A stretch of 63,332 nt of DNA, filler included, from Octopus bimaculoides (Eukaryota), in the NCBI RefSeq assembly GCF_001194135.2. It is 7 parts of 7 records of this genome, joined end to end, with 100 filler letters (N's around TTAATTAATTAA, not from the genome) between each part and the next. Parts side by side here need not be neighbours in the genome. Positions count along the whole stretch, not along the records: positions 24,802 to 46,957 come from NC_069006.1; positions 47,058 to 50,922 come from NW_026425248.1; positions 51,023 to 57,185 come from NC_069002.1; 4 more parts are not named here. The stretch is one strand, 5' to 3'. Below the pieces are notes generated by a model. That model did no database searches. It was not told the DNA's origin and worked only from the letters and a program-made list of their open reading frames with translations. The translations under genes were made by a program, and so were the position numbers. This document shows, in pieces, positions 27,310 to 53,042 of this stretch (the first letter of the stretch is position 1; each line of letters starts with the position of its first letter).

Positions 27310-27381
27310 AGTAAAAGAGGGTCCACCCAAATAAGATAGGAATCGAAGGGGCTTATCGGTGAAAAACGGTTGAGAACCACT
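27310..27381. mobile_element. hAT-like MITE end fragments (also 25380-25455, 47270-47690 as two tandem copies, 60361-60510)
   Basis: Terminal GGTTGAGAACCACTG and GGGGTCC motifs resembling Charlie/hAT-type termini. Confidence 0.5.
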
Positions 27382-29840: not shown

Positions 29841-29843
<3 letters not shown>

Positions 29844-30000
29844 GAGAAATTACGAAAAAAACAACAGACGAAGACAGGTGGTGTAAACAACAAAAGGATG
29901 TATTAGTTTAACGCTCGGGAATAGAGAAAGTCTTTGACGTTTCGAGCTACGCTCTTCAACTGAAAGGAACAAAGAAAGAAATAAGGAGAGAAACAAGGAC
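29841..30000 (-). mobile_element. ~160-bp TA-anchored element with minimal hammerhead-like motif (copy 1); others 36212-36310 (-), 37190-37272 (-), 52845-53001 (+)
   Basis: Four homologous copies; the three with a visible terminus each end at a (TA)n tract; motif CTTT-CWGTKGAA-GAGC(n3-4)GCTC-GAAA-CGT(C/T)-AAAG. Confidence 0.7.
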
Positions 30001-30116
30001 AAAAAAAATATATATATAAATGTAGTGGTCAGCGATCTATCATGGCGATATATATCTCCAAGTGAAAGCATAATCTGTGGCCTCTGCCAGAAGTGTAGCC
30101 AGCTCACTTATTCGTA

Positions 30117-30640
30117 TCTTTACTTCATTGGACACTAAAAACCTTGCTTGCAAAGACATGTTGAGGCAAGTGAATTTGAAATCGAAATCAAACCAAATTC
30201 GATGACTGGCACCCATGCCAACTTCTCCTTCATTGGACACTAAACTCTGCTTCCAAAGACCTGTTGGGGCAAGTGAAATCGAAATCGAACCATATTTGAT
30301 GACTGGCACATGTGCCAGTGGAGCACTAACAGCACTGTCCAAGCGTGATCATTGCCAGAGCAGCTGTCTGGCTTCCGTGCTAGTGGCCCATAAATAGCAT
30401 CATTTGAGCATGATCGTTACCAGCGTCACTTTACTGGCACTTTTGCCAGTGGCACGTTAGGAAATCATTCGAGCGAGGTAATTGCCAGTGCCGCTGGACT
30501 GGCCCCTGTGCAGGTGGCACGTAAAAAACACCATTTTGAACGTGGTCGTTGCCAGTACCGTGTGACTGGTCCTCATGCCGGTGGCATGTAAAAGTACCCA
30601 CTACACTCTCAGAGTGGTTGGTGTTAGAATGTTGTTTTCC
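30117..30640 (+). mobile_element. RTE-type 3'-end repeat family with (GAT)n tail; related pieces 35205-35560 (-), 42620-42785 (+), 43638-43780 (+), 44230-44520 (-), 44575-44660 (-), 44975-45110 (-)
   Basis: Shared GGTGGCACGTAAAAGCACC internal repeats, CCACTACACTCT.GAGTGGTTGGCGTTAGGAAGGGCATCCAGC and CCCATGCTAGCATGGAAAGC..ACGTTAAACGATGATGATG end. Short-repeat tails are typical of RTE. Confidence 0.7.
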
Positions 30641-30759
30641 ACGTACCACTGGCACAAGTGCCAGTAAGGCGGTGCTTTTTACATGCCACCGGCACAGGGG
30701 CCAGTCAGCTGCCCTGGTGACAATCACACTGAGATGGTGCTCTTAGCGCTCCTTCTTTT

Positions 30760-31455
30760 CTTTTATTTGTTTTAGTCAATAGACTGTGGCCATACTGGAG
30801 CACCGCCTTTAATTGAACAAATTGTCCCCCAGGCCTCATTCTTTGTAAGCCTAGTACTTATTCTATCAGTCACTTTTGTTGAACCGCTAAGTTTACGGGG
30901 ACATAAACACACCAACATCGGTTGTCCAGCTATGGCGCAGGGTCAAACACAGACATACAAACCTATACATACATGTGTGTGTGTGTGTGTGTGTCTTTGT
31001 GCCTGTGTTTGTCCTCCACCGCTACTTGACAATCCAGGTTAGTTTGTTTACATCCCTTGTAACTCAGCATTCCAGCAAAGGAGACTAATAGAAAAAATAC
31101 TAGAGGTGGTTTGTTTATGTCACTTATAACTTAGCATTCTGGCAAAGGAGACCAATAGAATAAAATACCAGAGTTGGTTTGTTTATGTCCCTTATAACTT
31201 AGCAGTCTGGCAAAGGAGTCCAATAGAATAAAGTACCAGAGTTGGTTTGTTTATGTCCCTTATAACTTAGCATTCTGGCAAAGGAGACCAATAGAATAAA
31301 GTACCAGAGTTGGTTTGTTTATGTTCCTTATAACGCAATAGAATAAAGTACCAGGCTTTAAAAAAAAGTGCTGAGGTCAATTCATTCAACTAAATGTTCT
31401 TCAATGTGGTGCTCCAGTATGGCCCCTAGTTTAATGATTGAAACAAGTAAAATAT
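30760..31455. mobile_element. Two family A second halves back to back (30760-30960 minus; 30990-31455 plus with internal 68-bp tandem array)
   Basis: Both contain the GGTGCTCCAG..TGGCC and GATAGAATAAGTAC motifs, in opposite orientations. Confidence 0.8.
31036..31355 (+). repeat. 68-bp tandem array derived from the SINE family A interior
   Basis: Units start at 31105, 31173, 31241 and 31309, plus a diverged first unit. Confidence 0.92.
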
Positions 31456-32103
31456 ATAAGATTTAAAAAAATGACAATAAAGTTAAATCTTAAAAAAAAA
31501 AAAAAACGCATGGTAAGAAAGAAAAGATTTTATCGTTAATTATTCTGCCATAGTTAACAACTTCAGGTGTCAACTTCCCTTAAAAACAACCTCTACAATC
31601 GACCCCCCCCCCCATCAGTATTGTCATGGGAGACAAGGCCAGAGGTGAAGAGGTTAAAGTTTTGTTTTGGAAGATGTTTCTTGGTCATCCATCTTTTTAA
31701 ACAATAAGTAAACATTCTCTCCAACTACCACTTAACATCATTACACACCTGCCTGCTGTGTCAATGACACACCTTGACATTAACAACCAGACATAAACAG
31801 GCAACAGGTAAGTACACACAAACACACATACACCCATGCACGCAAACACACACACACATACTCATTAACAGGTGCAGGCATGCGTGCATGTTTGCACACA
31901 CATCAACAGGTACACACACACAATAGATAGACACAAACACATCAACAGGTACACACACTCACACATACAAAATAGATAGACACAAACACATCAACAAGCA
32001 TACACACACATGCAAACAGGCAAATATACACACATCAACAGACACACACACACACTCACACACAGATACAGATCAACAAGAACACACAGAAATCAACAGG
32101 CAG

Positions 32104-32138
<35 letters not shown>

Positions 32139-33034
32139 CAAATCAACAGACACACACAATAACATTTGTCAAAAGTATTTTAAAATATTAACCATCAACA
32201 ACAACAACAAAAGCAAGGAAGAAGACAACAAAGAGAACAAAGAGAACAACTGGGGTTCTTTTAGGTGAGGCTTTTTACTACCTTGACACCTGAGCCATCA
32301 CCAACCATCACCACTACCTCTACCATTATCCATCAGCACTACACAACCACCACCACCACCACCACCACTACCACTGCCATCATCCACCATCAACACCACT
32401 ACCTCTACCATTATCCATTACCACCACACAACCACCAAACACAAACACCGCCAGCCACTTTTGCCACTGCCATCATTCAAGCCAGTGTCATTCAGATGTC
32501 ACACAGAAGACAATGGCAAGTCAGCTTGTTCAGACTCCAGTGGAGAAGAAGAAGAAATACCTGCTGACTAAAGAAAGGTGTGGCAAGGAAGACATATAAA
32601 CTCTGTAGTAATCTGAAGTAAATTAATTTGTGAGAGAGAGAGAGAGAGAGAGAGGGGGGAGGAGAGCAGAGAGGGTAGAAAAGAAAGGTGGTTAGGAAAC
32701 AAAGAGAGGGGGAGAAGACCCATAAACTCTAGTTATCTAAAGTAGTAATCTGTGGCAGAGACAGAGACAGAGAAAGAAGAACAGAGAGTATAAGAGAGAG
32801 GAGGAGAGGAAAAAGGCAAGAATTGAATGTGAGGGAGAGGAGGGCAAAGGGCCAAAAGGGGCTACAAGCAAAATGAAAAGATCCTTATTTTTATTAAACA
32901 AACTGTTCCTCTTTTTACTTGTTTCAACAATCTAAAGTTTATGGTATTGTTCAGCTCCCAGGTCAGTCCTAATCTTTCAATCAAAGGCATTTCAAATGTG
33001 ACTATCTAGTTTTTTAATCTTCAGTGAACTGGAT

Positions 33035-33550
33035 GCAGGTGGGACTTTGTAGTGAGAAGCTTGCTTCCCAACCACAGGGTTCCAGGTTCAGTCCCACTAT
33101 GTGGTACTTTGGGCAAGTGTCGTCTACTATAGCTTCAGGCTAACCAAAGCTTTGTGAGTAGATTTGGTAGCTGGAAACTGAAGGAAGCCCATCGTGTGTA
33201 TACACACACAAACACATAGACACAGGCATGGATGAGTGGTAAGGAGCTTTCTTCTCAACCACATGGTTTTGGGTTCATTCCCACTGCGTGGCACTTTGGG
33301 CAAATGTCTTCCACTATAGGCTTGGCAACAATGTTAAAACTTAAGTAAATAAGTTATTTTTTTATTAAATATAACAAGTCCAGGAACTCTTTGATACCAC
33401 CTCATATATACAAGAAGCTTGCTTTGCAACCAAATGGTTTCAGGTTCAGTCCCACTGCATGGCACTACAAGTAGATGTCTTCTTTTACTAAAGCCTCAGG
33501 TTGTCCAAAGCCTTCAGAATGAAAATGAGACAGAAACTGTGTTGAAGCCT
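33035..33550 (+). mobile_element. Three consecutive decayed family A heads
   Basis: GGTTCAGTCCCACT-like B-box segments near 33085, 33272 and 33443. Confidence 0.8.
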
Positions 33551-33551
33551 A

Positions 33552-33609
<58 letters not shown>

Positions 33610-34124
33610 NNNNNNNNNNNNNNNNNNNNNNNNNNNNNNNNNNNNNNNNNNNNNNNNNNNNNNNNNNNNNNNNNNNNNNNNNNNNNNNNNNNNNNNNNNN
33701 NNNNNNNNNNNNNNNNNNNNNNNNNNNNNNNNNNNNNNNNNNNNNNNNNNNNNNNNNNNNNNNNNNNNNNNNNNNNNNNNNNNNNNNNNNNNNNNNNNNN
33801 NNNNNNNNNNNNNNNNNNNNNNNNNNNNNNNNNNNNNNNNNNNNNNNNNNNNNNNNNNNNNNNNNNNNNNNNNNNNNNNNNNNNNNNNNNNNNNNNNNNN
33901 NNNNNNNNNNNNNNNNNNNNNNNNNNNNNNNNNNNNNNNNNNNNNNNNNNNNNNNNNNNNNNNNNNNNNNNNNNNNNNNNNNNNNNNNNNNNNNNNNNNN
34001 NNNNNNNNNNNNNNNNNNNNNNNGTAAGCATCTATGTGTATGACTGTTTATGCTTGTTCTCCACTGCCGTTTAATAACCATTTTCTCTTTGTTTATGCCC
34101 CCTATTCATAGTGTATTGGTTTGG

Positions 34125-34280
34125 GAAAAGAGACAGATAGAATAAGTACCAGACTGCAAAAAAAAAAATAATAACAATACTAATAAAATAAGTCCTGGGG
34201 GCAATTTGTTCAAGTAAAACTCTTGAAGATTATGCTCCAGCATGGTTGCGGTTCAGTGATTGAAACAAGTGAAAGATAAA
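34125..34280 (+). mobile_element. SINE family A second-half fragment
   Basis: GAGACAGATAGAATAAGTACC...GCTCCAGCATGG...TGAAACAAGT. Confidence 0.75.
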
Positions 34281-35561
34281 AAGCAAAAGACAAAGAATCA
34301 AGATGAAAGCACAGAATGCTACCCCACCCCCTCCACCACAAACACACACACCAAAAAGAAAAAAAAAAAAAATTATGATAATGATGGTGATGGTGGAGGT
34401 GGTGTTTGTTCCTCAGTGAGTAGCTCAGGCGCTCCCTTGTCACTGTTGTTGTAATAAATTAGCTGAAAGGAAACAAGTAACCAATAAAGCTATTTATTCA
34501 CCAAACACCATGCAAAACAAGGAAAAATGGATAAATAAATAGAGACAAATGCTTGATAATTAAGAAAACCAAAACCAAAAAAAAAAAAAGAAAAACTAGA
34601 AAAATGAGAAAAAAAAATTTTGTTTTTTTCAAATTGGTTAAGTCTAGTGTGAAAATATATATAATAATTGTTATTTTTTTCTTAGCAATAATTATGGTAA
34701 TTAACGAGAGTGGTGAAAATATATGAAACTGTGGGAGTGTTGGGTTTTGAAAATTTTTGTGTACTTAGTGTAATGATCCAGTGCAATGTGTAGCTGGTTC
34801 TAATACAGCCGCACTCATTGTATGTATGTGTGTGTATATATGCATGTATATATGTATGAAAGGACATGGCTCAGTGGTTAGAGCATCAGGCTCACAATTA
34901 TGAAGTTATGAGTTTGATTCCTGGACTGGGCTATGTGTTGTGTTCTTGAGCAAGACACTTTATTTAATGATTGCTCCAGTTCATTCACCGGTAGAAGGGA
35001 GTTACAACATCACAGGTGCCAAGCTGTATTGGCCCCTTTGACTGAACCCGGGACCATGTGGTTGGTAAGCAAGCTACTTACCACATAGCCACTCCTGCGC
35101 CTATAAGATGATTCATGAGGAATCCTAAATAAGTACAAACTTTTATGGCCATTTCAAGAAGATATAGGTTGATATGGGCGAGCTAAGTCCAACCATGATC
35201 ATCATCATCATCGTTTAATGTCCGCTTTCCATGCTAGCATGGGTTAGACGATTTGACTGTGGACTGGTAAACCAGATGACTACACCAGGCTCCAATCTGA
35301 TTTGGCAGAGTTTCTACAGCTGGATGCCCTTCCTAACGCCAACCACTCAAAGAGTGTAGTGGGTGCTTTTACATGCCACCAGCACGAAGGCCAGTCAAGA
35401 GGTACTGGCAACAGCCATGCTTGAAATGGTGTATTTTACGTGCCACCTGCACAGGAACCAGTCCAGCGGTACTGGCAACGAATTCGGTCAAATGTCTTTT
35501 CATGTGCCAGGAGGGCGACGTTGGTAACGATCACGCTCAAATGGTGCTATTTACGTGCATA

Positions 35562-35782
35562 CTTTTCTCATCCAAGTTAAGGGATTCAAAGAGTTGTTAA
35601 AATTTTAAGAGATATGAGAGGTTTGAGAATTTTTCAAAAACGAATGTACCTTCACCTGTAACTATAATTTTAATTATATCATTTGCATGAAGAGTATGGT
35701 TTGTTTCTGAAAAATTCTCAAACCTCTCATATCCCTTAAAATTTTAACAACTCTTTGAACCCCTTAACTCTGATGAGAGTGG
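35562..35782. mobile_element. MITE with ~75-bp terminal inverted repeats, probable TA TSD (Tc1/mariner type)
   Basis: CTCATCCAAGTTAAGGGATTCAAAGAGTTGTTAAAATTTTAAG... is mirrored at 35700-35778; TA at 35560-61 and 35783-84; it truncates the adjacent RTE-type repeat. Confidence 0.8.
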
Positions 35783-35814
35783 TATAGATAACTGTTAAGG
35801 TTGGAGTTAGCTCG

Positions 35815-36115
35815 CCCATTGGATTGCACCTAGAAAGTTCCCCCTCTGAGGCACAAGTCCAGGTAAGGTCGTTAATGGAACACCAGCAGTTGCCCATGCA
35901 TACCAGCCTCCCCACCCAGTTCCACTGATGTTATCCAAGGCAAAGGCAAAAGCTGATACTGTTTGGCACCAGTGATGATGTTGCAACTCATTTCTACAGC
36001 TGAGTGAATTGGAGCAACGTGAAATGAAGTGTCTTGCTCAAGAACACAGCCCATCTGCGAATTGAACTCACAACCTCAGGATTGCGAGTCTGATGCTCTA
36101 ACCACTGAGCCATGC
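35815..36115 (-). mobile_element. tRNA-headed CORE-like SINE (family C); related copies 11765-12000 (-), 23530-23790 (+), 34862-35040 (+)
   Basis: GCATGGCTCAGTGGTTAGAGCA A-box, GAGTTCAATTC B-box, GTTCTTGAGCAAGACACTTCATTTCACGTTGCTCC segment resembling the CORE domain as recalled. Confidence 0.75.
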
Positions 36116-36116
36116 A

Positions 36117-36212
<96 letters not shown>

Positions 36213-37273
36213 GGGAGAATATACAAATAATAACAACAGACGAGGACAGGTGGTGTAAATAACAAAAGGATATATTAGTATGACGCTCGGGAATACGGAA
36301 AGTCTTTGACNNNNNNNNNNNNNNNNNNNNNNNNNNNNNNNNNNNNNNNNNNNNNNNNNNNNNNNNNNNNNNNNNNNNNNNNNNNNNNNNNNNNNNNNNN
36401 NNNNNNNNNNNNNNNNNNNNNNNNNNNNNNNNNNNNNNNNNNNNNNNNNNNNNNNNNNNNNNNNNNNNNNNNNNNNNNNNNNNNNNNNNNNNNNNNNNNN
36501 NNNNNNNNNNNNNNNNNNNNNNNNNNNNNNNNNNNNNNNNNNNNNNNNNNNNNNNNNNNNNNNNNNNNNNNNNNNNNNNNNNNNNNNNNNNNNNNNNNNN
36601 NNNNNNNNNNNNNNNNNNNNNNNNNNNNNNNNNNNNNNNNNNNNNNNNNNNNNNNNNNNNNNNNNNNNNNNNNNNNNNNNNNNNNNNNNNNNNNNNNNNN
36701 NNNNNNNNNNNNNNNNNNNNNNNNNNNNNNNNNNNNNNNNNNNNNNNNNNNNNNNNNNNNNNNNNNNNNNNNNNNNNNNNNNNNNNNNNNNNNNNNNNNN
36801 NNNNNNNNNNNNNNNNNNNNNNNNNNNNNNNNNNNNNNNNNNNNNNNNNNNNNNNNNNNNNNNNNNNNNNNNNNNNNNNNNNNNNNNNNNNNNNNNNNNN
36901 NNNNNNNNNNNNNNNNNNNNNNNNNNNNNNNNNNNNNNNNNNNNNNNNNNNNNNNNNNNNNNNNNNNNNNNNNNNNNNNNNNNNNNNNNNNNNNNNNNNN
37001 NNNNNNNNNNNNNNNNNNNNNNNNNNNNNNNNNNNNNNNNNNNNNNNNNNNNNNNNNNNNNNNNNNNNNNNNNNNNNNNNNNNNNNNNNNNNNNNNNNNN
37101 NNNNNNNNNNNNNNNNNNNNNNNNNNNNNNNNNNNNNNNNNNNNNNNNNNNNNNNNNNNNNNNNNNNNNNNNNNNNNNNNNNNNNNNNNTTTAACGCTTG
37201 GGAATAGAGAAAGTCTTTAACGTTTCAAGTCCACGCTCTTCAACTGAAAGAAATAAGGAGAAAAACAAGGAGG

Positions 37274-37466
37274 TGTTTGTCCCCCCACCATCGCTTGACA
37301 ACCGATGCTGGTGTGTTTACGTCCCCGTAACTTCGAGGTTCGACAAAAAAGAGACCGATAGAATAAGTACTAGGCTTACAAAGATTAAGTCCTGGGGTTG
37401 ATTTGCTCGACTAAAGGTGGTGCTCCAGCATGGCCACAGTCAAATGACTGAAACAAGTAAAAGAGT
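37274..37466 (+). mobile_element. SINE family A second half
   Basis: Near-identical to 22670-22860. Confidence 0.85.
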
Positions 37467-37809
37467 ATACCCCGGTATCATACACAATATATGTACAGGA
37501 AAAAGATTGTAAGCTGGATGTGAAAAATCACATCTAAATTAATTAAGAATTTCAAAAAAAATTTATTGAAAGCTTCCCATGCTTTTGGGCTAACCCTACA
37601 ATAATTCATCTATGTGTTTGTCCTTTTTTCTTGTTTCTTGAATGGTTGGGCATGTGATTTGAGGGAAATTTGGCTCCAATTTTTAGCAGGTCGATCGACA
37701 CACAGAGTCTGTTGGCTCAATTCAGTGGACTGTAGGAGAATCTGGCAGCTAACTTGGCAATATAACTGAAGTTTGTTATATACAGCAGACAGATAGGAAT
37801 TTTGTATAC

Positions 37810-37867
<58 letters not shown>

Positions 37868-40327
37868 ACAAACACACACACTCAGTCACTAACACACACA
37901 TACACAGAGAGCAGTGAATGGGGTTAACAGGAACTGCTAATCAGATAATCAGCACAATGTAAAGGAGGGGGGAGGTAAAGGTAGGGAGGAGGGGGNNNNN
38001 NNNNNNNNNNNNNNNNNNNNNNNNNNNNNNNNNNNNNNNNNNNNNNNNNNNNNNNNNNNNNNNNNNNNNNNNNNNNNNNNNNNNNNNNNNNNNNNNNNNN
38101 NNNNNNNNNNNNNNNNNNNNNNNNNNNNNNNNNNNNNNNNNNNNNNNNNNNNNNNNNNNNNNNNNNNNNNNNNNNNNNNNNNNNNNNNNNNNNNNNNNNN
38201 NNNNNNNNNNNNNNNNNNNNNNNNNNNNNNNNNNNNNNNNNNNNNNNNNNNNNNNNNNNNNNNNNNNNNNNNNNNNNNNNNNNNNNNNNNNNNNNNNNNN
38301 NNNNNNNNNNNNNNNNNNNNNNNNNNNNNNNNNNNNNNNNNNNNNNNNNNNNNNNNNNNNNNNNNNNNNNNNNNNNNNNNNNNNNNNNNNNNNNNNNNNN
38401 NNNNNNNNNNNNNNNNNNNNNNNNNNNNNNNNNNNNNNNNNNNNNNNNNNNNNNNNNNNNNNNNNNNNNNNNNNNNNNNNNNNNNNNNNNNNNNNNNNNN
38501 NNNNNNNNNNNNNNNNNNNNNNNNNNNNNNNNNNNNNNNNNNNNNNNNNNNNNNNNNNNNNNNNNNNNNNNNNNNNNNNNNNNNNNNNNNNNNNNNNNNN
38601 NNNNNNNNNNNNNNNNNNNNNNNNNNNNNNNNNNNNNNNNNNNNNNNNNNNNNNNNNNNNNNNNNNNNNNNNNNNNNNNNNNNNNNNNNNNNNNNNNNNN
38701 NNNNNNNNNNNNNNNNNNNNNNNNNNNNNNNNNNNNNNNNNNNNNNNNNNNNNNNNNNNNNNNNNNNNNNNNNNNNNNNNNNNNNNNNNNNNNNNNNNNN
38801 NNNNNNNNNNNNNNNNNNNNNNNNNNNNNNNNNNNNNNNNNNNNNNNNNNNNNNNNNNNNNNNNNNNNNNNNNNNNNNNNNNNNNNNNNNNNNNNNNNNN
38901 NNNNNNNNNNNNNNNNNNNNNNNNNNNATATATATATATATATACATATATATATCATGGACACTCCTGTCATTAGATGACATATGAGGGTTTGGCAATT
39001 TCTTGCTGAACCATCACACAGATGATTTGTTTAAAGTGATCATATGTTTGTGTAGACACAAGCTCACTCTCTCCATCAATTCGACATTACCTGTACAGGT
39101 GCCACATCTCAGGTGCCAAAATGATCGCAGAGCAATGTGAATTGAAGTGCTTTGCTCAAGGATATAACACAACAGAGGCGTAGGAGTGGCTGTTATTTAT
39201 AAAGTCACATCACAAGGCACTAACAACACCAACCATTTTAGACTACACATAGCACTAACATCATCAGTTATAGACCACACAACACCGATAATTCATAAAG
39301 TCACACAACACACACACATCACCAGTTACTATAAACCACACAAGACTAGATTGTCATAATCCATGCCACAAGATGTTCACACCCCAAGTTTTTACAGACC
39401 ACACATCATCATAAAGTACACACAACACCAGTTATTTATAAAGCAATACAAAATGCACACACACACACACATACACACATACAGAACACCACTTACTATA
39501 ACTCAAAAGACTAGCTATTTGTAATCCATACAAGATAACCCACACCACAAGATTAATCCACACCAGAAGATCAATCTACACAAGATAACCCATACCACAA
39601 GATTGTAACTCACACCCAAGATTTTACAGATCACACAACACCGTCTATTTATAGATCCACACCATAAAATACACAAGCAAACTAACTACTTGAGTAATTT
39701 CCGAACAAACTAAGCTGACTGAACAGGAGAAGAAAGGAAAAGTTACTTTACGTGCAAGATGGCACATGTTCTCAAATTAATTATCAAAACCTATAAATAA
39801 TGGTCAATCTTAATCGTTACATTTCACTTCTTTCTTTTCTTTTGTTTTTTTGTTTTTTGTTGCTATATTTGGATTTTTTGTTTCTTTTGTATGTTTGTTT
39901 TGAACTCAACGAATATAGGACAACAACAGTAACAACAAAAAATAAATTAAAAAGCCAAAAACAATGTATTATAAAGAACACAAAAAGATGGCCCTATAAT
40001 AATTATATGTTTAACCCATTAGTGTTTAAACTGGCTATATCTGGCCCAAATATTCTACATGTTTTATATTTGAACTAGCCATATCTAGCCCCTCACACCT
40101 AACCTACAGAGACATTCTAAAAATAAATAATCACATCATTGAAACCTCAAAGCTATGAGATAATGCGTGATTAATTCAAAACAATTTGAGTGAAAAAGCA
40201 TTACATTTAACAGAGTAATCTCTCCATCAATTCGACATTACCTGTACAGGTGCCACATGTCAGGTGACAAAATGATCGCAAAGCAATGTGAAATGAAGTG
40301 CTTTGCTCAAGGATATTACACAACATA

Positions 40328-40493
40328 GGGCGTAGGAGTGGCTGTGTGGTGAGTAGCTTGCTTACGAACCACATGGTTCCGGGTTCAGTCCCACTATGCG
40401 GCACCTTGGGCAAGTGTCTTCTACTATAGCCTCGGGCCAAACAAAGCCTTGTGAGTGGATTTGGTAGACAGAAACTGAAAGAAGCCTGTCGTA

Positions 40494-40528
<35 letters not shown>

Positions 40529-40930
40529 NNNNNNNNNNNNNNNNNNNNNNNNNNNNNNNNNNNNNNNNNNNNNNNNNNNNNNNNNNNNNNNNNNNNNNNN
40601 NNNNNNNNNNNNNNNNNNNNNNNNNNNNNNNNNNNNNNNNNNNNNNNNNNNNNNNNNNNNNNNNNNNNNNNNNNNNNNNNNNNNNNNNNNNNNNNNNNNN
40701 NTATATGTCTGTGTGTGTATATGTTTGTGTGTCTGTGCTTGTCCCCACCAACATCGCCTGACAACCGATGCTGGTGTGTTTACGTCCCCGTAACTTAGCG
40801 GTTCGGCAAAAGAGACCGACAGAATAAGTACTAGGCTTACAAAGAATAAGTCCTGGGGTCGATTTGCTCGACTAAAGGCGGTGCTCCAGCATGGCCACAG
40901 TCTCAAATGACTGAAACAAGTAAAAGAGTA
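40328..40930 (+). mobile_element. SINE family A, full-length, N gap inside its internal microsatellite
   Basis: Head 40328-40492, gap 40529-40701, tail to GTAAAAGAGTAA. Confidence 0.9.
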
Positions 40931-41257
40931 ACGCTCAGAGTTAAATATCTTTGAAGGGTTATTGTTAATATTATAAATATAATTAACTCTTTAGCATCCA
41001 CTGCAAATAATTCTCGACACTTGAAATATCAACCAAGCACACAGGGCTACAAAACTGACAGAATTTGAAAGCTTGAATGAGTTCTGAGGCTTCCCTATGC
41101 TTAATCAACATTATTGCATAGCAGACAATGACAATATCAGGCAGCCGTTGGACAATTAGTAAGATGAAGTATTGGTCAACCAAAGACATCTGCCTAAGGT
41201 GCTATGCAGAGGAACTGAACCTGAAACTACACATCATTGTCAAAGGAACATACAGTC

Positions 41258-41655
41258 ACAGGAGTGGCTGTGTGGTAAGGAGCTTGCATACCAACCACAT
41301 GGTTCCAGGTTCAGTGCCACTGCATGGCATCTTCGGCAAGTGTCTTCTACTATAGCTGCAGGCTGACCAAAGCCTTTTGTGTGGATCTGGTAGACGGAAA
41401 CTGAAAGAAGCCCGTCATGTGTGTGCGTGTGTGTGTGTGTGTGTGTGTCTGTGTTTGTCGCCCACCAAACATCACTTGACAACCAATGCTGGTGTGTTTA
41501 TGTCCCTGTAACTTAGCAGTTCAGCAAAAGGGATGGACAGAATAAGTGCTAGGCTCACAAAGAATGAATCCTGGGGTCAATTTATTTAACTAAATGTGGT
41601 GCTCCAGCATGGCCACAGTCAAATATGACTGAAACAAATCAAAAAGTAAAAGAGT
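41258..41655 (+). mobile_element. SINE family A, full-length diverged copy
   Basis: Homology to family A; many CpG sites read TpG/CpA. Confidence 0.85.
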
Positions 41656-41792
41656 ATATTGACCAAACTTGGCCACGCCTGAATTTATATTATCAAGAGT
41701 ATGATGCCATGGAAGAAGTCCTCGTGCCAGTGGCACTGAATGAGAAACAATGCTGGCACCACGTGTGTGTGTATATATTTGTGTCTATATAT

Positions 41793-41989
41793 TCTTGTTT
41801 CAGTCATTTGACTGCGGCCATGCTGGAGTACCACCTTGAAGGACTTTTATCGAACAAATTAACCCCAGAACTTATTCTTTGTAAGCCTTATTTTATTGGT
41901 CTCTTTTGCCGAACCACTATGTTACGAGGACATAAGCACACCAACAGCAGTTGTCAAGCGGTGATGGGAGTACAAACACAGACACAAAT

Positions 41990-42000
<11 letters not shown>
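41793..42000 (-). mobile_element. SINE family A second half
   Basis: Homology on the minus strand. Confidence 0.8.
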
Positions 42001-42041
<41 letters not shown>

Positions 42042-42795
42042 CTTGTGATAGCAGGGGGCGGCATATCAGATTTCCTTTCATTATTTTACTTTTCTTTTCT
42101 CATAAGCAATATGTTAAACAGTAGTGAAAATAAACACATAAAAAAAACATTGATGTTATTATAACTATTATTACTATTATTACATAACAAATTTTCTTTT
42201 TTTTCCTTTTGATCTTACCTGTTTATAGCTTGTGACTAGCTGGGAGTTTTATACAGACACACTTCAAATGGACAGGTCAAAAACTGCTGGTTGTAATAAT
42301 CCCAAGAAGCAAATGGAGGCATTTCACTTTACTGCAAAATATTAAAATAATATGGAAATAACATGAGAAAACAGTCAATAAATACTTGGGAAAAATTGAT
42401 GAATTTCAAAAGTTAAGTACATCTGCCTATTTGTGAAGGTAATAATTGCAAACATCATCGTTGTCACTCATCGTCATTTTTAAAATTTTGTATTTTTCCA
42501 TGGTGGCACGAGTCTGATGAGATCTTGTGGTGACGTATTCTCTATCCAGAGGCCCTCTCTGATGTTGATCCCAACTTATATGTTTCTATGTGAGGTATTT
42601 TTTAACTTGTGTCTTTGCACATCAAACAGAGTGGTTGGTATTAGGATGGGCATCCAGCAGTAGAAACCAAGCCAAAACAGGCTGGATACTGGTGTGGTTC
42701 TCTGGCTTACTAGTTCCAGTCAAACCATCTAACACCCATGCCAGCATAGAAAACAGACACTAAATGACAATGATGATGACGATGATATATATATA

Positions 42796-42832
<37 letters not shown>

Positions 42833-44661: not shown

Positions 44662-44970
44662 GAAGGCACGTGGCTTAGTGGTTAGGGCATTTGGCTCACG
44701 ATTGTAAGGTCGTGAGTTCAATTCCCGGCGATGCATTGGGTCCTTGAGCAAGATACTTTATTTCACGTTGCTCCAATCCACTCAGCTGGCAAACACGAGT
44801 AGTACCTGTATTTCAAAGGGCCTGTCTTGTCATGCTGAGTCTCCCTGAGAACTACGTTAGGGGTACACATGTCTGTGGATTACTCAGTCACTTGCACATA
44901 CATTTCATGAGCAAGCTGTTCCGTTGATCGTATCAGCTGGGACCCTTATCGTTGTAACCGACAGAGTGCT
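44662..44970 (+). mobile_element. SINE with tRNA head, CORE-like segment and family B-type 3' half
   Basis: TGGCTTAGTGGTTAG head, CCTTGAGCAAGATACTTTATTTCACGTTGCTCC segment, then CTGAGAACTACGTTAGGGGTACAC...CTGTTCCGTTGATCG shared with family B. Related tails on minus at 7825-7985 and 38957-39172. Confidence 0.75.
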
Positions 44971-45285
44971 CCTTTATGGTTGGATGCCCTTCCTGTCACC
45001 ACCCCTCATCTATTTCCAAACAAGGTAATATTGCCCCATTGCCAGATATGTTTACCTCGAATATTGATTTCAAATTTTTGCACAAGGCCAGCAGTTTAAG
45101 GAAGGGGGCCAAGTCAGTTACATCGACCCCCCAGTGCTCAACTAGAACTCAATATATTGCAAAGAGGGTGGGTGCATCAAGGTCTCCTTGCTTTATTCCA
45201 TTTTCCACAGCAAAAGATTCAGAGAGCCTACCACCAAAATTAACTCTAGCTTTCATATTTTGATGCAAAGCCCTGACCATGTTTA

Positions 45286-45330
<45 letters not shown>

Positions 45331-45339
45331 TACATACTC

Positions 45340-45745
45340 TTTTTACTCTTTTACTTGTTTCAGTCATTTGACTGCGGCCATGCTGGAGCACCGCCTTTAG
45401 TCGAGCAAATCGACCCCAGGATTTATTCTTTGGAAGTCTAGTACTTATTCTGTCATTCTCTTTTGCCGAACTGCTAAGTTACGGGGACGTAAACACACCA
45501 GCATTGGTTGTCAAGCGATGTTGGGGGGACAAACACAGACACGCAAACATATACACACACATACATACATATACATACATATATACGACGGGCTTCTTTC
45601 AGTTTCCGTCTACCAAATCCACTCACAAGGCTTTGGTCGGCCCGAGGCTATAGTGAAAGACACTTGCCCAAGGTGCCACGCAGTGGGACTGAACCCGGAA
45701 CCATGTGGTTGCTAAGCAAGCTTCTTACCACACAGCTACGCCTGC
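45340..45745 (-). mobile_element. SINE family A, full-length copy
   Basis: Homology on the minus strand, with internal (TA)/(CA) tract. Confidence 0.9.
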
Positions 45746-46796
45746 ACCTATATATATATGTATGTACACACTTATTCATCTCAGATGTACCTGGATCCCA
45801 CCTGAACCAGATAGGAAAAGAGGAAGGTTTTTTGGCACTAGGGCTGACCATTAATCCCATTCTGGTAACATAATACCAAAAATAAGAAGATGGCATAGGT
45901 AAACTCCTTTTTTTTTTTATTGCTGCCAGAAACAGATTTATGAAAGAGTTAATAAAATGTCGAAGGGAGTGGAAAGAAATATTAGTGTTGAAAAGGTTAA
46001 ATATGCCATTCACTGCTCCCACCACTATCATCATCACCACAATCATCATCAACATCACCGCCATTGATATTACCATCATCATCATCACAACAACCACCAC
46101 CACAGCTACATCCTATACTGCTAACAATGTCATAAAAATCCCTTCACCACTACCACCAGTACTACCACTTTCACTACGCCCATTACAACCACCACCACCA
46201 CAACTACTACCTGTACTGCTAACATTATCATCAACATTCCTTTATCATCACCACCACCACCACTAACATTATCGTCTCATCTCCTCCGAAACAAATCAAT
46301 GAAAAAAACTAAAACAAAAGCATAAAAAATCCCAAAATTTAAAACAAGTAAAAACAATACAACTTTGAGAGGATTTTTTTTTTATCAAGGAAGTGCCAAA
46401 ATGCCCTAACCTTTAACAACATCAACTATAGGTGAATCTTCAGAAATGTTCCCTAATGCCAAAATTGAAAACATTTTCCCAAAATCACTGTCATTGTTTA
46501 GTAGCCAAATGATAAGTCAAGTGACAGGAATTTCACAACACAATTTCTCTCTCTCTCTCTCTCCCTCATATAATAATAGTATAGCAACAGTATTTTATGA
46601 GGAACTGTAATGGTAATGGTGGTAGTAAGGAAGGGAATACACATGCACACGTATGCTAACATATGCATGTGCAAATACATACATACAAAATAGATATGGC
46701 AGACATGCAAACACTTACACATTTCTAGGCAGAAACACACACACGAACATGTCAGTCAACACCATACACTTTCACCAGAATATAGACGATAGATAT

Positions 46797-46828
<32 letters not shown>

Positions 46829-47227
46829 CACACAACAAACAGCATAGTGACATTTGGAGAAACACAGATGAGTGGAAAACCCAACCAACACCACAAACCA
46901 AAAGACCAAACCAATATAAATACACAAAGAACATACGTAAGCATATAAGCATATATANNNNNNNNNNNNNNNNNNNNNNNNNNNNNNNNNNNNNNNNNNN
47001 NTTAATTAATTAANNNNNNNNNNNNNNNNNNNNNNNNNNNNNNNNNNNNNNNNNNNNATATATAGATATAGATATAGATATACATATGTACATATATATA
47101 TATACATATATATATATTCCTTTATTCCTTTACTTGTTTCAGTCATTTATATACACATATATATTGAAGCCTGTTGTTTATGTCATTATACCCCAGGAGT
47201 TCGATAAAAGAAATAATAGCCTGCCAG

Positions 47228-47265
<38 letters not shown>

Positions 47266-49615
47266 TGCTTTAGATGTATGAATTGATATGTATTGCAAGA
47301 AATAGCTAGGTTCCTTTCTCTACCATTTTACAGAGTTCAACCTACACCAGTGAATGAGTGAAAATCAAAAATAGGAATTTTGAAAGAAGTTTCTATAAAA
47401 CTTAGTTTTTAAAATCATCGAATGGCTATGGGGGTCCACCAGAATAAAATTACGATCAAAGGGGGTGCATAGATAAAGAAAAATAGCTGAGAACCCCTAC
47501 TTTAGATGTATGTATTGGTATGTATTGCAAGAGAGCGTTTAACCTACAAAAGTTAATGTGTGAATTAAAAAAATAGGAATTTTGAAAGAATTTTCTATAA
47601 AACAAGTTTTTAAACATCAAATGGTTAAGACGGGGTCCAGTTATCAAATGGGTCCATAGATAAAAAAAAAATGGTTGAGAAGCCCTTAACTAAACCCCAG
47701 CATGGTCGTAGTCCAATGATTGACATCAGTAATAGGCTTAATAAAGAAACAAACAGAAAACCTCAGAATCATTTATTCTTAAATTTCTGAAAAACACGTT
47801 TAGCCTCATCGTCGTTTTTTCCCCCCTTTTTTGTTGGATATTCATTCCTTTCAGCTTTCAGTCAATCTTTGGAATTTTTAGACCAATTCTTTTCATTCTC
47901 TTACGATCCAGTGCCCTCATCAAGCTTTGCTTCTAACAAAATCACATGAATTTTTATCTTTCTTCTACTTGTCTTTTCTTTTTTTAAAAAAGAAATATAT
48001 GCCTAAATGATATATAATTGTGTTAAATCGATTTTATTTTCATCAGTAAATATTTCCAATATTTGTTGCACAATCTAAATATATACAATAATATGGCTTG
48101 TTTTTTTTATTTATTCACATACGTACATACTCATATACTCACATACATGCATGCATATATACTTCCATATATAGACGCATCCCTTTCAAACATACTCATG
48201 TACATACCTACATCGATACATAAATACATAAATATATATATACATAAATATATATNNNNNNNNNNNNNNNNNNNNNNNNNNNNNNNNNNNNNNNNNNNNN
48301 NNNNNNNNNNNNNNNNNNNNNNNNNNNNNNNNNNNNNNNNNNNNNNNNNNNNNNNNNNNNNNNNNNNNNNNNNNNNNNNNNNNNNNNNNNNNNNNNNNNN
48401 NNNNNNNNNNNNNNNNNNNNNNNNNNNNNNNNNNNNNNNNNNNNNNNNNNNNNNNNNNNNNNNNNNNNNNNNNNNNNNNNNNNNNNNNNNNNNNNNNNNN
48501 NNNNNNNNNNNNNNNNNNNNNNNNNNNNNNNNNNNNNNNNNNNNNNNNNNNNNNNNNNNNNNNNNNNNNNNNNNNNNNNNNNNNNNNNNNNNNNNNNNNN
48601 NNNNNNNNNNNNNNNNNNNNNNNNNNNNNNNNNNNNNNNNNNNNNNNNNNNNNNNNNNNNNNNNNNNNNNNNNNNNNNNNNNNNNNNNNNNNNNNNNNNN
48701 NNNNNNNNNNNNNNNNNNNNNNNNNNNNNNNNNNNNNNNNNNNNNNNNNNNNNNNNNNNNNNNNNNNNNATATATATATATATATATATATAGGTGTGTG
48801 TCTGTGTTCGTGCTTATTTCTAGCAACGTAGGTGTTTTTTTAACACCCTAGTCACATTTAGTGAAAGTTATAATTCTCCTTTTTGGTGAAGCATTTTAAC
48901 CTGCTGGCTATATTCATTTTCTGTATGTATGTATGTATATATATATGTATGTATGTATATATATATATGTATGTATGTGTGTGTGTAGGGACAGAGAGAG
49001 AGAGAGAAAGAGAGAGAGAGCGGCGTGGGTGAGGCTAAATCTTGAGAAATTATATATTAACAACACTGCATTGTGTCTGTCTCTCTCTCAATTTCTATTA
49101 TCTCTTTCTCTCTTTATAAATACTCACATCCACACAGACTCACAGGTATATATGAATGTATATATGGATATATATATAACGTCCTATACCCAGATGTGCA
49201 TCTATATATATATGTAGATGTAGGTATGTACATACATGTACGTATATATGCATATACTCATATATTATTTGTATTACATATACATATATATATATATATG
49301 AATGTATATAAACGTATATATATATATGTATGTATGTTTATATGTCTCTCTCTCTTTCTATCTCCCTCTCCCTCTCACCAATTCTCTTTCTGTTGTCCAC
49401 GCCATTTTCTTCCCTCTCATAGACTCAGTATTGTCGACGTATTATTTGTCACGTGACACGACTTTCAGTCTGCCAAACAAATACCTTGAAGAATATAAGC
49501 AATAAATGAATTTAAAAAATACAAAAATACAAAAAAAAAAACACGTACACACACACACATACATAGACACATACACAGAAGTGTGTATATATATAGACGT
49601 ACGTATATATATCTA

Positions 49616-49647
<32 letters not shown>

Positions 49648-51024
49648 ACCATACATGCATACATACATACATACATATATATACACACACATACATATAT
49701 ATGCATACATATATANNNNNNNNNNNNNNNNNNNNNNNNNNNNNNNNNNNNNNNNNNNNNNNNNNNNNNNNNNNNNNNNNNNNNNNNNNNNNNNNNNNNN
49801 NNNNNNNNNNNNNNNNNNNNNNNNNNNNNNNNNNNNNNNNNNNNNNNNNNNNNNNNNNNNNNNNNNNNNNNNNNNNNNNNNNNNNNNNNNNNNNNNNNNN
49901 NNNNNNNNNNNNNNNNNNNNNNNNNNNNNNNNNNNNNNNNNNNNNNNNNNNNNNNNNNNNNNNNNNNNNNNNNNNNNNNNNNNNNNNNNNNNNNNNNNNN
50001 NNNNNNNNNNNNNNNNNNNNNNNNNNNNNNNNNNNNNNNNNNNNNNNNNNNNNNNNNNNNNNNNNNNNNNNNNNNNNNNNNNNNNNNNNNNNNNNNNNNN
50101 NNNNTATACATATACATATATATATATATTTATATATATTTATATGTCTGTGTGTGTGTGTGTGCGTGTGTATGTATACACATACATATGTGTGCGTTAG
50201 TATATGAGCTAAAAATACCGTCTACATCGACTACACATTCCAACGTCATGCATAGCTATTTCTCCACGGAGTTCCATGTGAGCAAAAGCAATTTTAAGGA
50301 GGAAGTTTCGTTGGATCGTTAAAAATATAAATCAATGAATTTAAAAAATGGGATGTGCAGCAATGTGCATAATATCATTGGCTGAATGTAATTTTGCTGC
50401 ACAATAACGTACAGCTATGCAGTAAGAGGAGTAGCTGCTTGCTTCACTATAGCTCTTTCTTTAAGCGACCAATCAGAATTGTGGAAGGGCGGCAAATGTT
50501 GAAAGAGTCATTTGGTTGGCTTGTTGGTTGGTTGGTTGGATTGCGTATTTTGTTCGTTCCGTTCTTGAAGATAATTATGATGATGATGATATATATGGCA
50601 GCGGTTGTGGGGGGGTTTGGGGTATTGCTGGTGGTCAACTAATAGACGTTGCTTGGTCGTGTAATGAGGTTTAACGGAGGATAAATTATTATCCAAGATA
50701 ATCAGCGCATACAGTGTGTGTGTCTGTGTGTGTCTTGGGATCTGGACAGAATTGACCCAGGCCAAGTATAACCTGATCACACGCGCCTGTGTGTACGTGG
50801 ATGTGTATGCATATATATCTATATATATAGATATATCTATTTATATATATATATCTATATATATATGTATGGTTATCTATCTATCTATATATCTATCTAT
50901 CTATCTATCTATCTATATATATNNNNNNNNNNNNNNNNNNNNNNNNNNNNNNNNNNNNNNNNNNNNTTAATTAATTAANNNNNNNNNNNNNNNNNNNNNN
51001 NNNNNNNNNNNNNNNNNNNNNNCC

Positions 51025-51123
51025 CAACGCCCGGATGTCTACGTGAATAGCAAGCGTGAGGTGTTTAATCCTTGCCCGCATGAAAGGAAGTACATCCTAT
51101 CTTACTTGCGAATCCCATCATGA
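51025..51123 (+). mobile_element. Penelope-like element, GIY-YIG ORF C-terminus (QRPDVYVNSKREVFNPCPHERKYILSYLRIPS*)
   Basis: NS+xExFxxCxHxxKxxL resembles the conserved C-terminal tail of Penelope-like ORFs as recalled; upstream sequence is lost at the scaffold join. Confidence 0.6.
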
Positions 51124-51633
51124 CTGCAAACACAGGTCCCCTGCTTTGAACCACGGCCCTCGATCCTCTGCCAACGACCTTCCACCAATGCCCCCGGGCC
51201 CGGCAAATATAGTCTGACCAAAGCACACACCAATTCACTACTCCTGCAAGAAAATTGTTCTCCGACACAGACCCAGAGCCCCCCCCCCACACACACACAC
51301 ACATTATGCATTAAATTCCGCAAAACAACAAAAAAGAAAAATCCACAACTTTATCCTTTACAGAAAGAAAACAGATTAACGAACACCCCTATATATACCG
51401 ACATTCTGAGATAAAATTATGCATATAACAAAACTCTGCATATCACACACCCCATCTCCACATGAGCGTCACATTAATAATACAAATTTTCATTTCAAGA
51501 TATATCCAACCAAGGGCAATAACTCCTAACCTAATTCCCTTGCCTTTTGTTCGTTTCGCCACCTCTTTCACAGCGACCACTGACTGGTTAGGCTAGTCCA
51601 CCACCGACAATAGAGACCAAGCGCCATATTCCC

Positions 51634-51742
51634 ATCCATATCAGCTAACTCCGATGAGCGTAAAGTTATATAGTCGGATTGTACGTAACAGTCCATTGTC
51701 TTCTTTGCGCGAAACCGATTGGTAAAATCAGCCGTGATGGAT
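51634..51742 (+). ncRNA. Type I hammerhead-ribozyme-like motif (U4C core variant)
   Basis: CCGATGA 51651-57; stem II GCGTAAAG 51658-65 / CTTTGCGC 51703-10 with nested GGATTGT/ACAGTCC hairpin; GAAA 51711-14; stem III ACC-gatt-GGT; GUA site at 51722-24; distal stem I pairs (GCT/AGC, ATCA/TGAT, ATCC/GGAT). Confidence 0.7.
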
Positions 51743-51765
51743 ATTTAATACTATACTTTTCGGAT

Positions 51766-51806
<41 letters not shown>

Positions 51807-52637
51807 TAACTCAAAAGCCGCCCTGTCGATTGGCTTTCAAGCCAGCACCTGTAGAGGGGTCTTCATTAGGCTTTGGGACCAACAATGATNNNNNNNNNNN
51901 NNNNNNNNNNNNNNNNNNNNNNNNNNNNNNNNNNNNNNNNNNNNNNNNNNNNNNNNNNNNNNNNNNNNNNNNNNNNNNNNNNNNNNNNNNNNNNNNNNNN
52001 NNNNNNNNNNNNNNNNNNNNNNNNNNNNNNNNNNNNNNNNNNNNNNNNNNNNNNNNNNNNNNNNNNNNNNCTCTCTCTCTCTCTCTCTCTCTCTCCCTCT
52101 CTCCCTCTCTCTCTATTTCTGTTGATAGTTTTCAACCATCACCAGTACCACCACCATCGCCACATCAACTGCTAAACATACACCATTCAGACTTCTGACG
52201 CTACCACCATCAACACCTTTGACTTTACCGCGTTTCTCTCCACCTCCATCATCAATGCCTTTCGCATTGGTTTCTCGCATTGTCATCCTTGACCACCACC
52301 ACCATCACCACCATCACCACCGCCACCTCCGCATCCATCACAACTGCATTTCATACTATAACTATCGTCCCATTACCACCACAAAAAGGCTAAATGCTTG
52401 TGTTCTTTCAGTATGTTATTCAGCATGTTACCTCAGTGTTCAGTTCCTCTTTTTCTCACATACCCACTCTTTTTCTCTCTTTCTCTCTGTCTCATTATTA
52501 CTCCCACTGCCACCATCAACGCTAATAATTTTATTGAAAATATCATCAACTTTCCCTAAATGTCCTGGTCTCTATTTCTCTCTTTTTCTTTCTTTCACTC
52601 TCTCTCTCTCTCTCTCTCTCTCTTTCTATCTCTCTCT

Positions 52638-52702
<65 letters not shown>

Positions 52703-52998
52703 CTCTCCATCTCTATGCCTAATATTCCTCTCATCCCATCATGAGGAACAGTAGGACTGTCATTGAATAGTGAAAGAGGGGTGTCTAAGTGTGACACACT
52801 GACACACAGACATTAGTCTTCACATTTATGGCTAGCCACTACACATTCTTTATTTTCTCTCCTTGTCTCTTTCTGTATTCTATTCTGTGGAAGAGCGTAG
52901 GCTCGAAACGTTAAAGACTTTTTCACTTCCCGAGCGTTAAACTACATCTGTTTGTTGGCTACACCACTTGTGTTCATCTTTTGTTTTTTGTGAATTAT

Positions 52999-53042
<44 letters not shown>

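What the first reader, a model, noticed from the sequence alone, without database searches (positions are those of the whole stretch)
29841..53001. Dispersed ~160-bp TA-anchored element with a minimal hammerhead-like motif and a shared non-canonical core
Seen in three readable copies (29931-29966 minus, 37214-37251 minus, 52883-52917 plus): stem I (T)CTTT/AAAG(A), core C(A/T)GT(T/G)GA plus an extra A, stem II GAGC/GCTC (decayed in the 37.2-kb copy), GAAA, a loopless palindromic stem III ACGT, and a GUC/GUU site. Established: minimal type I hammerheads with palindromic stem III occur in Penelope-related and retrozyme-type repeats and are thought to cleave as dimers. All three copies have U instead of A at core position 6, which suggests a family-level variant rather than random decay. 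It could be a non-autonomous ribozyme-bearing retroelement, or a dead family that still amplified.
Basis: partly seen in the sequence, partly recalled or inferred. Interest (0 to 1): 0.75.

Follow-up and report, generated by a model that had tools for sequence, protein, structure and literature searches.

The report
Retrotransposon hammerhead with frozen A6U core
These repeats are the broken-off tail ends of a very abundant Penelope-type jumping gene whose small hammerhead RNA motif has carried U instead of the usual core A through its whole series of subfamilies, so it is likely a weakened self-cutter that the element keeps but seems not to need for copying; cutting is untested.

Summary
The motif is real in all three copies, and a fourth, gap-cut copy lies at 36213-36310. 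It is not a stand-alone 160-bp element. The copies are 5'-truncated 3' ends (pLTRs) of a Neptune-type Penelope-like retrotransposon: longer copies run upstream into a GIY-YIG endonuclease and reverse transcriptase, and tandem copies run on into the next ORF. The genome holds at least 9,157 copies. Core position 6 is U in 7,115 exact pattern matches, A in 55 and G in 19; in a sample chosen without regard to the hammerhead, 85 of 87 have U6 and none A6. Across 14 hand-sorted subfamilies (about 6% to 0.4% diverged) only 1 of 30 core and stem columns changes, while position 7, loop II and position 17 change. Sister lineages and relatives in other animals keep A6, so U6 is derived. Copies were made from RNA uncut at the site. 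Best reading: an attenuated, probably protein-assisted ribozyme (0.5); rival: a non-cutting structural signal (0.3). The scan noted A6U before in Penelope elements of other genomes (unchecked notes). New variant of a known kind.

The parts
29842..30048 (-). 5'-truncated 3' end (pLTR) of the Penelope-like element, subfamily with A4 and U6; followed by (TA)n
   Evidence: 89.9% to the long copy L406; sequence
29931..29966 (-). minimal hammerhead motif: stem I 29966-29963/29935-29932, core C3 at 29962, U6 at 29959, stem II 29954-29944, G12 at 29943, C17 at 29936 (predicted cut 29936/29935)
36213..36310 (-). fourth copy, youngest subfamily; begins at an assembly gap at G16.2-U16.1-C17, so the core is not readable; followed by a TA run
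   Evidence: 93.2% to L292
37190..37272 (-). third copy, 5'-truncated, 3' part lost in an assembly gap
37214..37251 (-). hammerhead motif with A4, U6 (37243) and decayed stem II; U17 at 37219
52833..53000 (+). 5'-truncated 3' end of the element, middle-aged subfamily (G7, U17); followed by (TA)n; lies at G000:C22:21230786 region
   Evidence: 90.4% to L003
52881..52917 (+). hammerhead motif: C3 at 52885, U6 at 52888, stem II 52893-52904, G12 at 52905, U17 at 52912 (predicted cut 52912/52913); one private mismatch in stem I
52929..52946 (+). conserved motif about 16 nt 3' of the predicted cut, shared with the sister lineage; function unknown (promoter or protein-binding site are guesses)

Best explanation
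The repeats are the 5'-truncated 3' ends of a Neptune-type Penelope-like retrotransposon whose hammerhead has carried A6U since one ancestral master element, and the motif is likely a weakened but still maintained ribozyme that would cut only slowly and with the help of the element's protein. Shown: the link to an RT plus C-terminal GIY-YIG ORF, the fixed 3' end at (TA)n about 90-95 nt past the predicted cut, variable 5' truncation, tandem pLTR-5'UTR-ORF junctions that begin with a TA-rich run, U6 in all subfamilies, and templates uncut at the site. Inferred from known PLE biology: the endonuclease nicks (TA)n, reverse transcription is primed there and starts inside the RNA at the pLTR end, and usually stops after about 200 nt. 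Inferred from evolution: the fold is still under selection. Predicted by folding: U6 loses the normal A6 contacts and also lets G5-U6-(U7) pair with A14-A15.1-C15.2, an off state that keeps the RNA whole while it serves as template; residual dimer cleavage would trim read-through or tandem precursors.
For: Element identity: upstream walk of 1 kb and more reaches GIY-YIG and RT frames; the RT piece finds 108 homologues, best 56% identity, E 1.6e-76, of which 4 tested carry RVT_1 and/or GIY-YIG; the endonuclease piece is 46% identical over 140 aa to one of them; the CxxxxCxxC linker resembles the Neptune rows of PMC8557442's supplement; tandem junctions. U6 fixed: 7,115 U, 55 A, 19 G; 85 of 87 U, 2 C, 0 A in the hammerhead-independent sample; the 9 alignable A6 copies fall into several subfamilies. 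Constraint: 1 of 30 core and stem columns changes along 14 subfamilies against 20 of 49 downstream columns (Fisher p 1.6e-4; 22 of 68 with the conserved motif included, p 1.4e-3), and the changes fall on N7, loop II and H17; H17 is C 33, U 29, A 25, G 0 of 87, as the NUH rule asks (PMC11014351); C3, G5, G8, G12, A13, A14 stay. The one core change (U4A) was later undone by a short deletion between near-direct repeats that also lengthened stem I. Stem II shows an A-U to G-C swap in the sister lineage. Off state: mean probability of G5-C15.2 0.80 in 30 natural U6 copies against 0.23 in 15 natural A6 copies. Precedent: a natural A6C hammerhead cuts slowly but detectably (PMC3088659); the PAc hammerhead cuts only with protein and is not needed for insertion in vitro (PMC11167929).
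Against: No cleavage was measured. In a full mutational scan of another hammerhead all changes in the CUGA region gave low activity except the C3-G8 swap (PMC9901934), and minimal PLE hammerheads are already slow (PMC4209133), so U6 may abolish cutting. A subfamily with two core changes (A4 and U6) still amplified (488 exact matches), and a sister subfamily has G17 (L252, L272). Within the U6 lineage the stems never vary, so there is no covariation to show that the constraint acts on RNA rather than on DNA (for example a promoter). The subfamilies were sorted by hand, partly on hammerhead columns, many copies were fetched by hammerhead patterns, and the comparison columns are pyrimidine-rich and may mutate faster, so the p values are generous. 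87 of 94 copies read through the cut site and 5' ends are not clearly enriched there, so cutting leaves no clear footprint. The active dimer is predicted 7.3 kcal/mol less stable than two monomers, hardly different from A6 copies (6.7). No intact ORF was found.
Confidence: 0.5

Rival explanations
1. Same element, but the hammerhead no longer cuts at all; the sequence is kept as a non-catalytic signal (binding site for the element's RT or a host factor, or part of the pLTR promoter).
For: U6 and, for a time, A4 were tolerated in amplifying masters; CUGA mutants have low activity; templates are uncut; catalytic mutants of the PAc hammerhead do not affect insertion in vitro; a second conserved motif without known ribozyme role lies just downstream.
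Against: The free positions are those that are free in a working hammerhead (N7, loop II, H17 without G in 87 of 87); G8 and G12 never change at subfamily level; U4 came back.
Confidence: 0.3
2. Dead relic: U6 killed the ribozyme in one master, the motif is now neutral, and its apparent stability reflects the short time and few substitutions along the master lineage.
For: The trunk has few changes in all (31 in 49 downstream columns); no compensatory change within the lineage; cutting is dispensable in vitro; Naiad elements thrive without a canonical hammerhead (PMC8557442).
Against: 1 of 30 against 20 of 49 columns changed; 8 changes fell on the 6 free columns inside the motif while the 30 around them changed at one column only.
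Confidence: 0.12
3. A6U is a fully active natural variant, compensated by the extra A, the short loop II or a distal contact.
For: U6 has been kept through every subfamily without reversion at master level.
Against: Low activity of position-6 variants in print; predicted off-state pairing; most templates uncut.
Confidence: 0.05
4. A non-autonomous short retroelement or retrozyme that spreads as circles.
For: Most copies are short and ORF-less; some loci hold two or three motifs 200-800 nt apart.
Against: 5' ends are scattered, not fixed; long copies are collinear with an RT/GIY-YIG ORF; the tandem loci have variable spacing and junctions; no head-to-tail joint at the cut in RNA reads.
Confidence: 0.03

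Closest known systems
Minimal type I hammerheads (min-HHR) in pLTRs of metazoan Penelope-like elements (Cervera and De la Pena 2014, PMC4209133)
   Same: [quoted passage not shown]
   Different: Core position 6 is U in the whole lineage (the core variant that paper reports in the parts read is U3-A8); stem II is only 4 bp; one subfamily also had A4.
Neptune clade of endonuclease-bearing PLEs (as summarised in Craig et al. 2021, PMC8557442)
   Same: Single ORF with RT then Cys-rich linker then C-terminal GIY-YIG; partial tandems, an inverted 5'-truncated copy (L027), microsatellite targeting.
   Different: Hammerhead is non-canonical and would be missed by a CUGANGA descriptor; about 0.8-1 kb low-complexity 3' UTR; clade placement rests on motifs, no RT tree was built.
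Poseidon element PAc of Anolis (Frangieh et al. 2024, PMC11167929)
   Same: Reverse transcription starts downstream of the hammerhead; uncut RNA is the template; AT-rich targets; no RNA-seq ends at the cut.
   Different: PAc has a working, protein-assisted motif overlapping the ORF start; here the ORF starts about 600 nt downstream and the core is altered.
Natural A6C hammerhead of phage Bcep176 (Perreault et al. 2011, PMC3088659)
   Same: Natural change at core position 6, slow but detectable cleavage.
   Different: A single phage sequence with C, not a retrotransposon lineage of thousands of copies with U.
Metazoan non-LTR retrozymes (Li et al. 2026 preprint 10.64898/2026.07.22.740005)
   Same: Type I hammerhead, PLE-related.
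   Different: Retrozymes are non-coding fixed-length tandem units; this is the end of a coding element.

Membership tests
Penelope-like element, EN+ (Neptune type) | RT of the PLE type upstream of the repeat, same strand | tested here: met
   L050/L076 frames with YIDD; homologues with RVT_1; the decayed fragments themselves give no Pfam or PDB hit
Penelope-like element, EN+ (Neptune type) | C-terminal GIY-YIG endonuclease preceded by a CX2-5CxxC linker | tested here: met
Penelope-like element, EN+ (Neptune type) | Partial tandem (pLTR before the next ORF) and inverted 5' copies | tested here: met
   L077, L227, L406 and others; inverted pair in L027
Penelope-like element, EN+ (Neptune type) | Placement in the Neptune clade by RT phylogeny | not tested
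Penelope-like element, EN+ (Neptune type) | Intact ORF in a current master copy | tested here: inconclusive
   all ORF pieces seen are broken; young-type ends join ORF starts in L391 and L406; long young copies end in assembly gaps
Minimal type I hammerhead of PLEs | Stems I and II, extra A, G10.1-C11.1, GAAA, palindromic 15.1-16.1, NUH triplet | tested here: met
Minimal type I hammerhead of PLEs | Canonical CUGANGA core | tested here: not met
   U6 in 85 of 87; so it is filed as a variant of the motif, not as a canonical member
Minimal type I hammerhead of PLEs | Self-cleavage after H17, as a dimer | not testable with these tools
   RNA-seq lays were uninformative
Non-LTR retrozyme | Non-coding unit of fixed length in head-to-tail tandems | tested here: not met
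Naiad or Hydra PLE | N-terminal endonuclease (Naiad); endonuclease without CCHH (Hydra) | tested here: not met
   endonuclease is C-terminal and keeps the Cys and His residues of the Neptune rows

The most novel reading that the evidence does not exclude
A6U is a selected brake: Penelope elements have repeatedly tuned their hammerhead down by a change that both weakens the core and locks the monomer in an off hairpin, so that the RNA stays whole for reverse transcription and is cut only when the element's own protein refolds it, or the ribozyme fold has been turned into a non-cutting signal. This lineage gives a ladder of natural variants (U6; A4 plus U6; U4 regained; A, U or C at 17) plus an A6 sister lineage in the same genome with which to test what PLE hammerheads are for.
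Probability: 0.3. Interest if true: 0.7.

Novelty: new variant of a known kind. Interest (0 to 1): 0.45.

Why it matters
The function of hammerheads in Penelope-like elements is open: they are nearly universal in these elements, yet slow in vitro and dispensable for insertion in the one reconstituted system. Here a lineage of more than 9,000 copies kept amplifying up to near-identical young copies with a core letter that should cripple cutting, while the rest of the motif stayed fixed. That either shows that very weak cutting is enough and perhaps favoured, or that the fold has a second job. It also means that searches for CUGANGA undercount these motifs: in this genome the U6 matches (7,115 plus 488) outnumber the A6 matches of a looser pattern (3,204).

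Tried and rejected
Rfam scan: no hammerhead model hit. Pfam and PDB on decayed ORF pieces: nothing useful; identity came from homologues instead. Folding of the element end is no more stable than shuffles (z -0.65 to 1.44, 6 sequences). RNA reads of three runs from one study cover the young element from both directions (1,978-2,832 reads laid per run) with no pile-up of ends at the predicted cut and no joint there; the A6 sister lineage shows none either, so this test cannot tell cutting from no cutting. No indexed holder was on record as RNA. 5' ends at the cut: among 38 distinct places in the first 100 of 402 overlapping rows (37 readable, counted by hand), 9 begin at +1 to +4 against 4 at the A-run just upstream; too weak to claim, and TA microhomology explains the 7 that begin in loop II. 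Among the 30 ORF-start loci, 8 pLTRs span the cut and 1 (L242) may begin at it. An alternative pairing of the stem II 3' arm with the downstream conserved motif was dropped because the motif does not covary when stem II changes in the sister lineage. A hidden A6 master subfamily is unlikely: 55 A6 matches are near the roughly 1% T-to-A background, though their excess over G6 (19) leaves room for a few relics of an A6 ancestor in the oldest subfamily. Retrozyme, Naiad and Hydra readings were rejected (see membership tests). Lunse et al. 2017 on small PLE hammerhead variants could not be opened.
Full report
Observation. A fourth copy, cut by a gap just before the cleavage triplet, lies at 36213-36310 minus. 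The window is a pack of stretches, so only the first three copies share a stretch. Hammerhead numbering follows the convention used in PMC4209133; the roles of G8 and G12 as the catalytic guanosines are established knowledge, echoed.

What the repeat is. A search of the own genome (G000, 2.34 Gb) scored 40 of 757 candidates, all 88-92% identical apart from the self match. Their 3' ends coincide and run into TA repeats; their 5' ends differ. Ten of the 30 fetched loci share further upstream sequence, two of them for 1 kb. A second step reached frames for a GIY-YIG endonuclease preceded by a CxxxxCxxC linker and, in L050/L076, a reverse transcriptase with YIDD. These pieces are decayed and give no Pfam or PDB hit themselves, but the RT piece finds 108 longer homologues, best 56% identical; 4 of 4 tested carry RVT_1, GIY-YIG or both, one is 46% identical over 140 residues to the endonuclease piece of L047, and another is matched from residue 6 to 888 by pieces across the loci. 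The linker and endonuclease resemble the Neptune rows in the supplement of PMC8557442; no tree was built. In L077 and other loci the repeat end continues through a TA-rich junction and about 600 nt of 5' UTR into the next ORF start, the partial tandem typical of these elements; L027 holds an inverted pair. Ends of the younger subfamilies show the same junction, and L391 and L406 continue into ORF starts. No intact ORF was seen; long young copies end in gaps. A 19-letter motif outside the hammerhead has 9,157 exact matches, a lower bound; about twice that number is my inference from the divergence. The host looks like an octopus (recalled from its repeats; the scan's notes say the same; not tested).

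Position 6. With the rest of a 25-26-letter pattern fixed, position 6 is U in 7,115 places, A in 55 and G in 19; C was not counted genome-wide. In 94 copies picked by the downstream motif on contig C1, the hammerhead is readable in 87: U6 85, C6 2, A6 0; position 7 is U 58, C 13, G 13, A 3; position 17 is C 33, U 29, A 25, G 0; 67 of 74 readable 3' ends are followed by a TA-type run. The 9 A6 copies that could be aligned are nearest to five different subfamilies, and the T-to-A background in older copies is about 1%, so they are mostly single-copy changes. A sister lineage in the same genome keeps A6 (3,204 matches to a looser pattern; 30 loci read), and all 18 hammerhead-like hits in 80 related metagenome loci have A6 under a descriptor that left the position free (most loci come from one assembly, and some hits belong to other families). 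U6 is therefore derived.

Evolution of the motif. I sorted 148 of 163 aligned copies by hand into 14 subfamilies that form a ladder from about 6% to 0.4% divergence (9 A6-selected copies set aside, 6 unassigned). Along it 1 of 30 core and stem columns changes, against 20 of 49 downstream columns (Fisher p 1.6e-4; p 1.4e-3 with the conserved motif counted in), and 3 of the 6 free columns change 8 times. The sorting used some hammerhead columns, many copies came from hammerhead patterns, and the comparison region is pyrimidine-rich, so these p values are generous; the independent sample gives the same majority letters. The one core change is U4A, a real subfamily (488 exact matches) to which two window copies belong; in the later subfamilies a deletion of about 12 nt between near-direct repeats brought U4 back and extended stem I to 5 pairs, and the youngest has GUC. 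The same deletion also appears in scattered older copies, so its fixation may be chance. Across both lineages 90.5% of cells in stems I and II pair and stem II has an A-U to G-C swap in 3 rows, but several columns were fixed by the search pattern and the rows are related. Against strict constraint: the sister lineage's youngest members have C4 and a weak stem I, and one of its subfamilies has G17.

Does it cut? Not shown. 87 of 94 copies carry sequence on both sides of the site (median 5' end roughly 110 nt upstream), and 8 of the ORF-leading pLTRs span it, so templates were uncut. 5' ends just after the site are at most weakly enriched. RNA reads cover the element from both directions without ends or joints at the site, and show no other letter at positions 4 or 6 above 3%; the A6 control behaves alike. 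Folding predicts that U6 closes the core on itself: G5-C15.2 pairs with mean probability 0.80 in 30 U6 copies and 0.95 in 20 A4-U6 copies against 0.23 in 15 natural A6 copies, while the active dimer is unfavourable in all groups.

Mechanism. Shown steps: coding element, fixed 3' end at TA runs, 5' truncation, inheritance of U6 from active masters, uncut templates. Inferred: nicking of (TA)n by the endonuclease and internal start of reverse transcription, by analogy with PAc. Predicted: U6 as a brake, with slow protein-assisted cutting of precursors. I put this at 0.5, a non-cutting signal at 0.3, a neutral relic at 0.12, full activity at 0.05 and a retrozyme at 0.03. That the repeat is a Penelope-like pLTR end with lineage-wide U6 is near certain.

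Literature seen. PMC4209133: parts 1-2 of 4 of the text and a term search of its supplement PDF, where figures are not readable. PMC11167929: parts 1-2 of 4. PMC8557442: passages and a term search of the supplement. PMC3088659, PMC9901934, PMC6765202, PMC11014351, PMC6962438: passages. Preprint 10.64898/2026.07.22.740005: part 1 of 5. Lunse et al. 2017 (PMC5785218): nothing but its citation; it and its supplements may already list position-6 variants. Seven searches found no paper reporting A6U in a Penelope hammerhead. The scan's own unchecked notes report A6U or A6C in Penelope families of other genomes; none matches this sequence or this place.

Verdict. A real, well-supported variant of a known motif in a known kind of element, with an unusually clean natural series for testing what these hammerheads do. 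Interest 0.45.

Noticed in passing
L250-L279 (G000:C1), e.g. L254:1436-1628: A second, TA-anchored pLTR lineage in the same genome keeps A6; its youngest, near-identical copies have C4, stem II GGGC/GCCC and a weak stem I, and one subfamily (L252, L272, L007) has G at position 17. No ORF was linked to it in the loci held.
   Followed up: partly
window 52929-52946 +; also 29902-29919 -, 36273-36291 -: A motif about 16-25 nt 3' of the predicted cut is conserved in both lineages although its surroundings differ; it does not covary with stem II. Promoter or protein-binding site are untested guesses.
   Followed up: partly
   Followed up: no
L310, L329, L336, L337, L343, L346, L347 and others: Related elements in marine metagenome contigs carry minimal hammerheads with C4 (12 of 18 hits), so U4C is common in this clade.
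   Followed up: partly
window 35556-35788: A long imperfect inverted repeat (about 230 bp hairpin, arms about 60-90 bp), likely a miniature DNA transposon; it gives only below-threshold microRNA matches in Rfam.
   Followed up: no
window 7821-8215, 17264-17940, 22465-22868, 24802-25266, 26489-27318, 33034-33539, 40329-42004, 45579-45771 and others: Several other dispersed repeat families of 100-300 bp with many copies in the window (self-comparison); not examined.
   Followed up: no
L255/L256 (G000:C1:8745390-8745573): Two identical short copies of a sister-lineage end 156 bp apart in direct tandem, separated by a TA run; a local duplication rather than a retrozyme unit on present evidence.
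   Followed up: no
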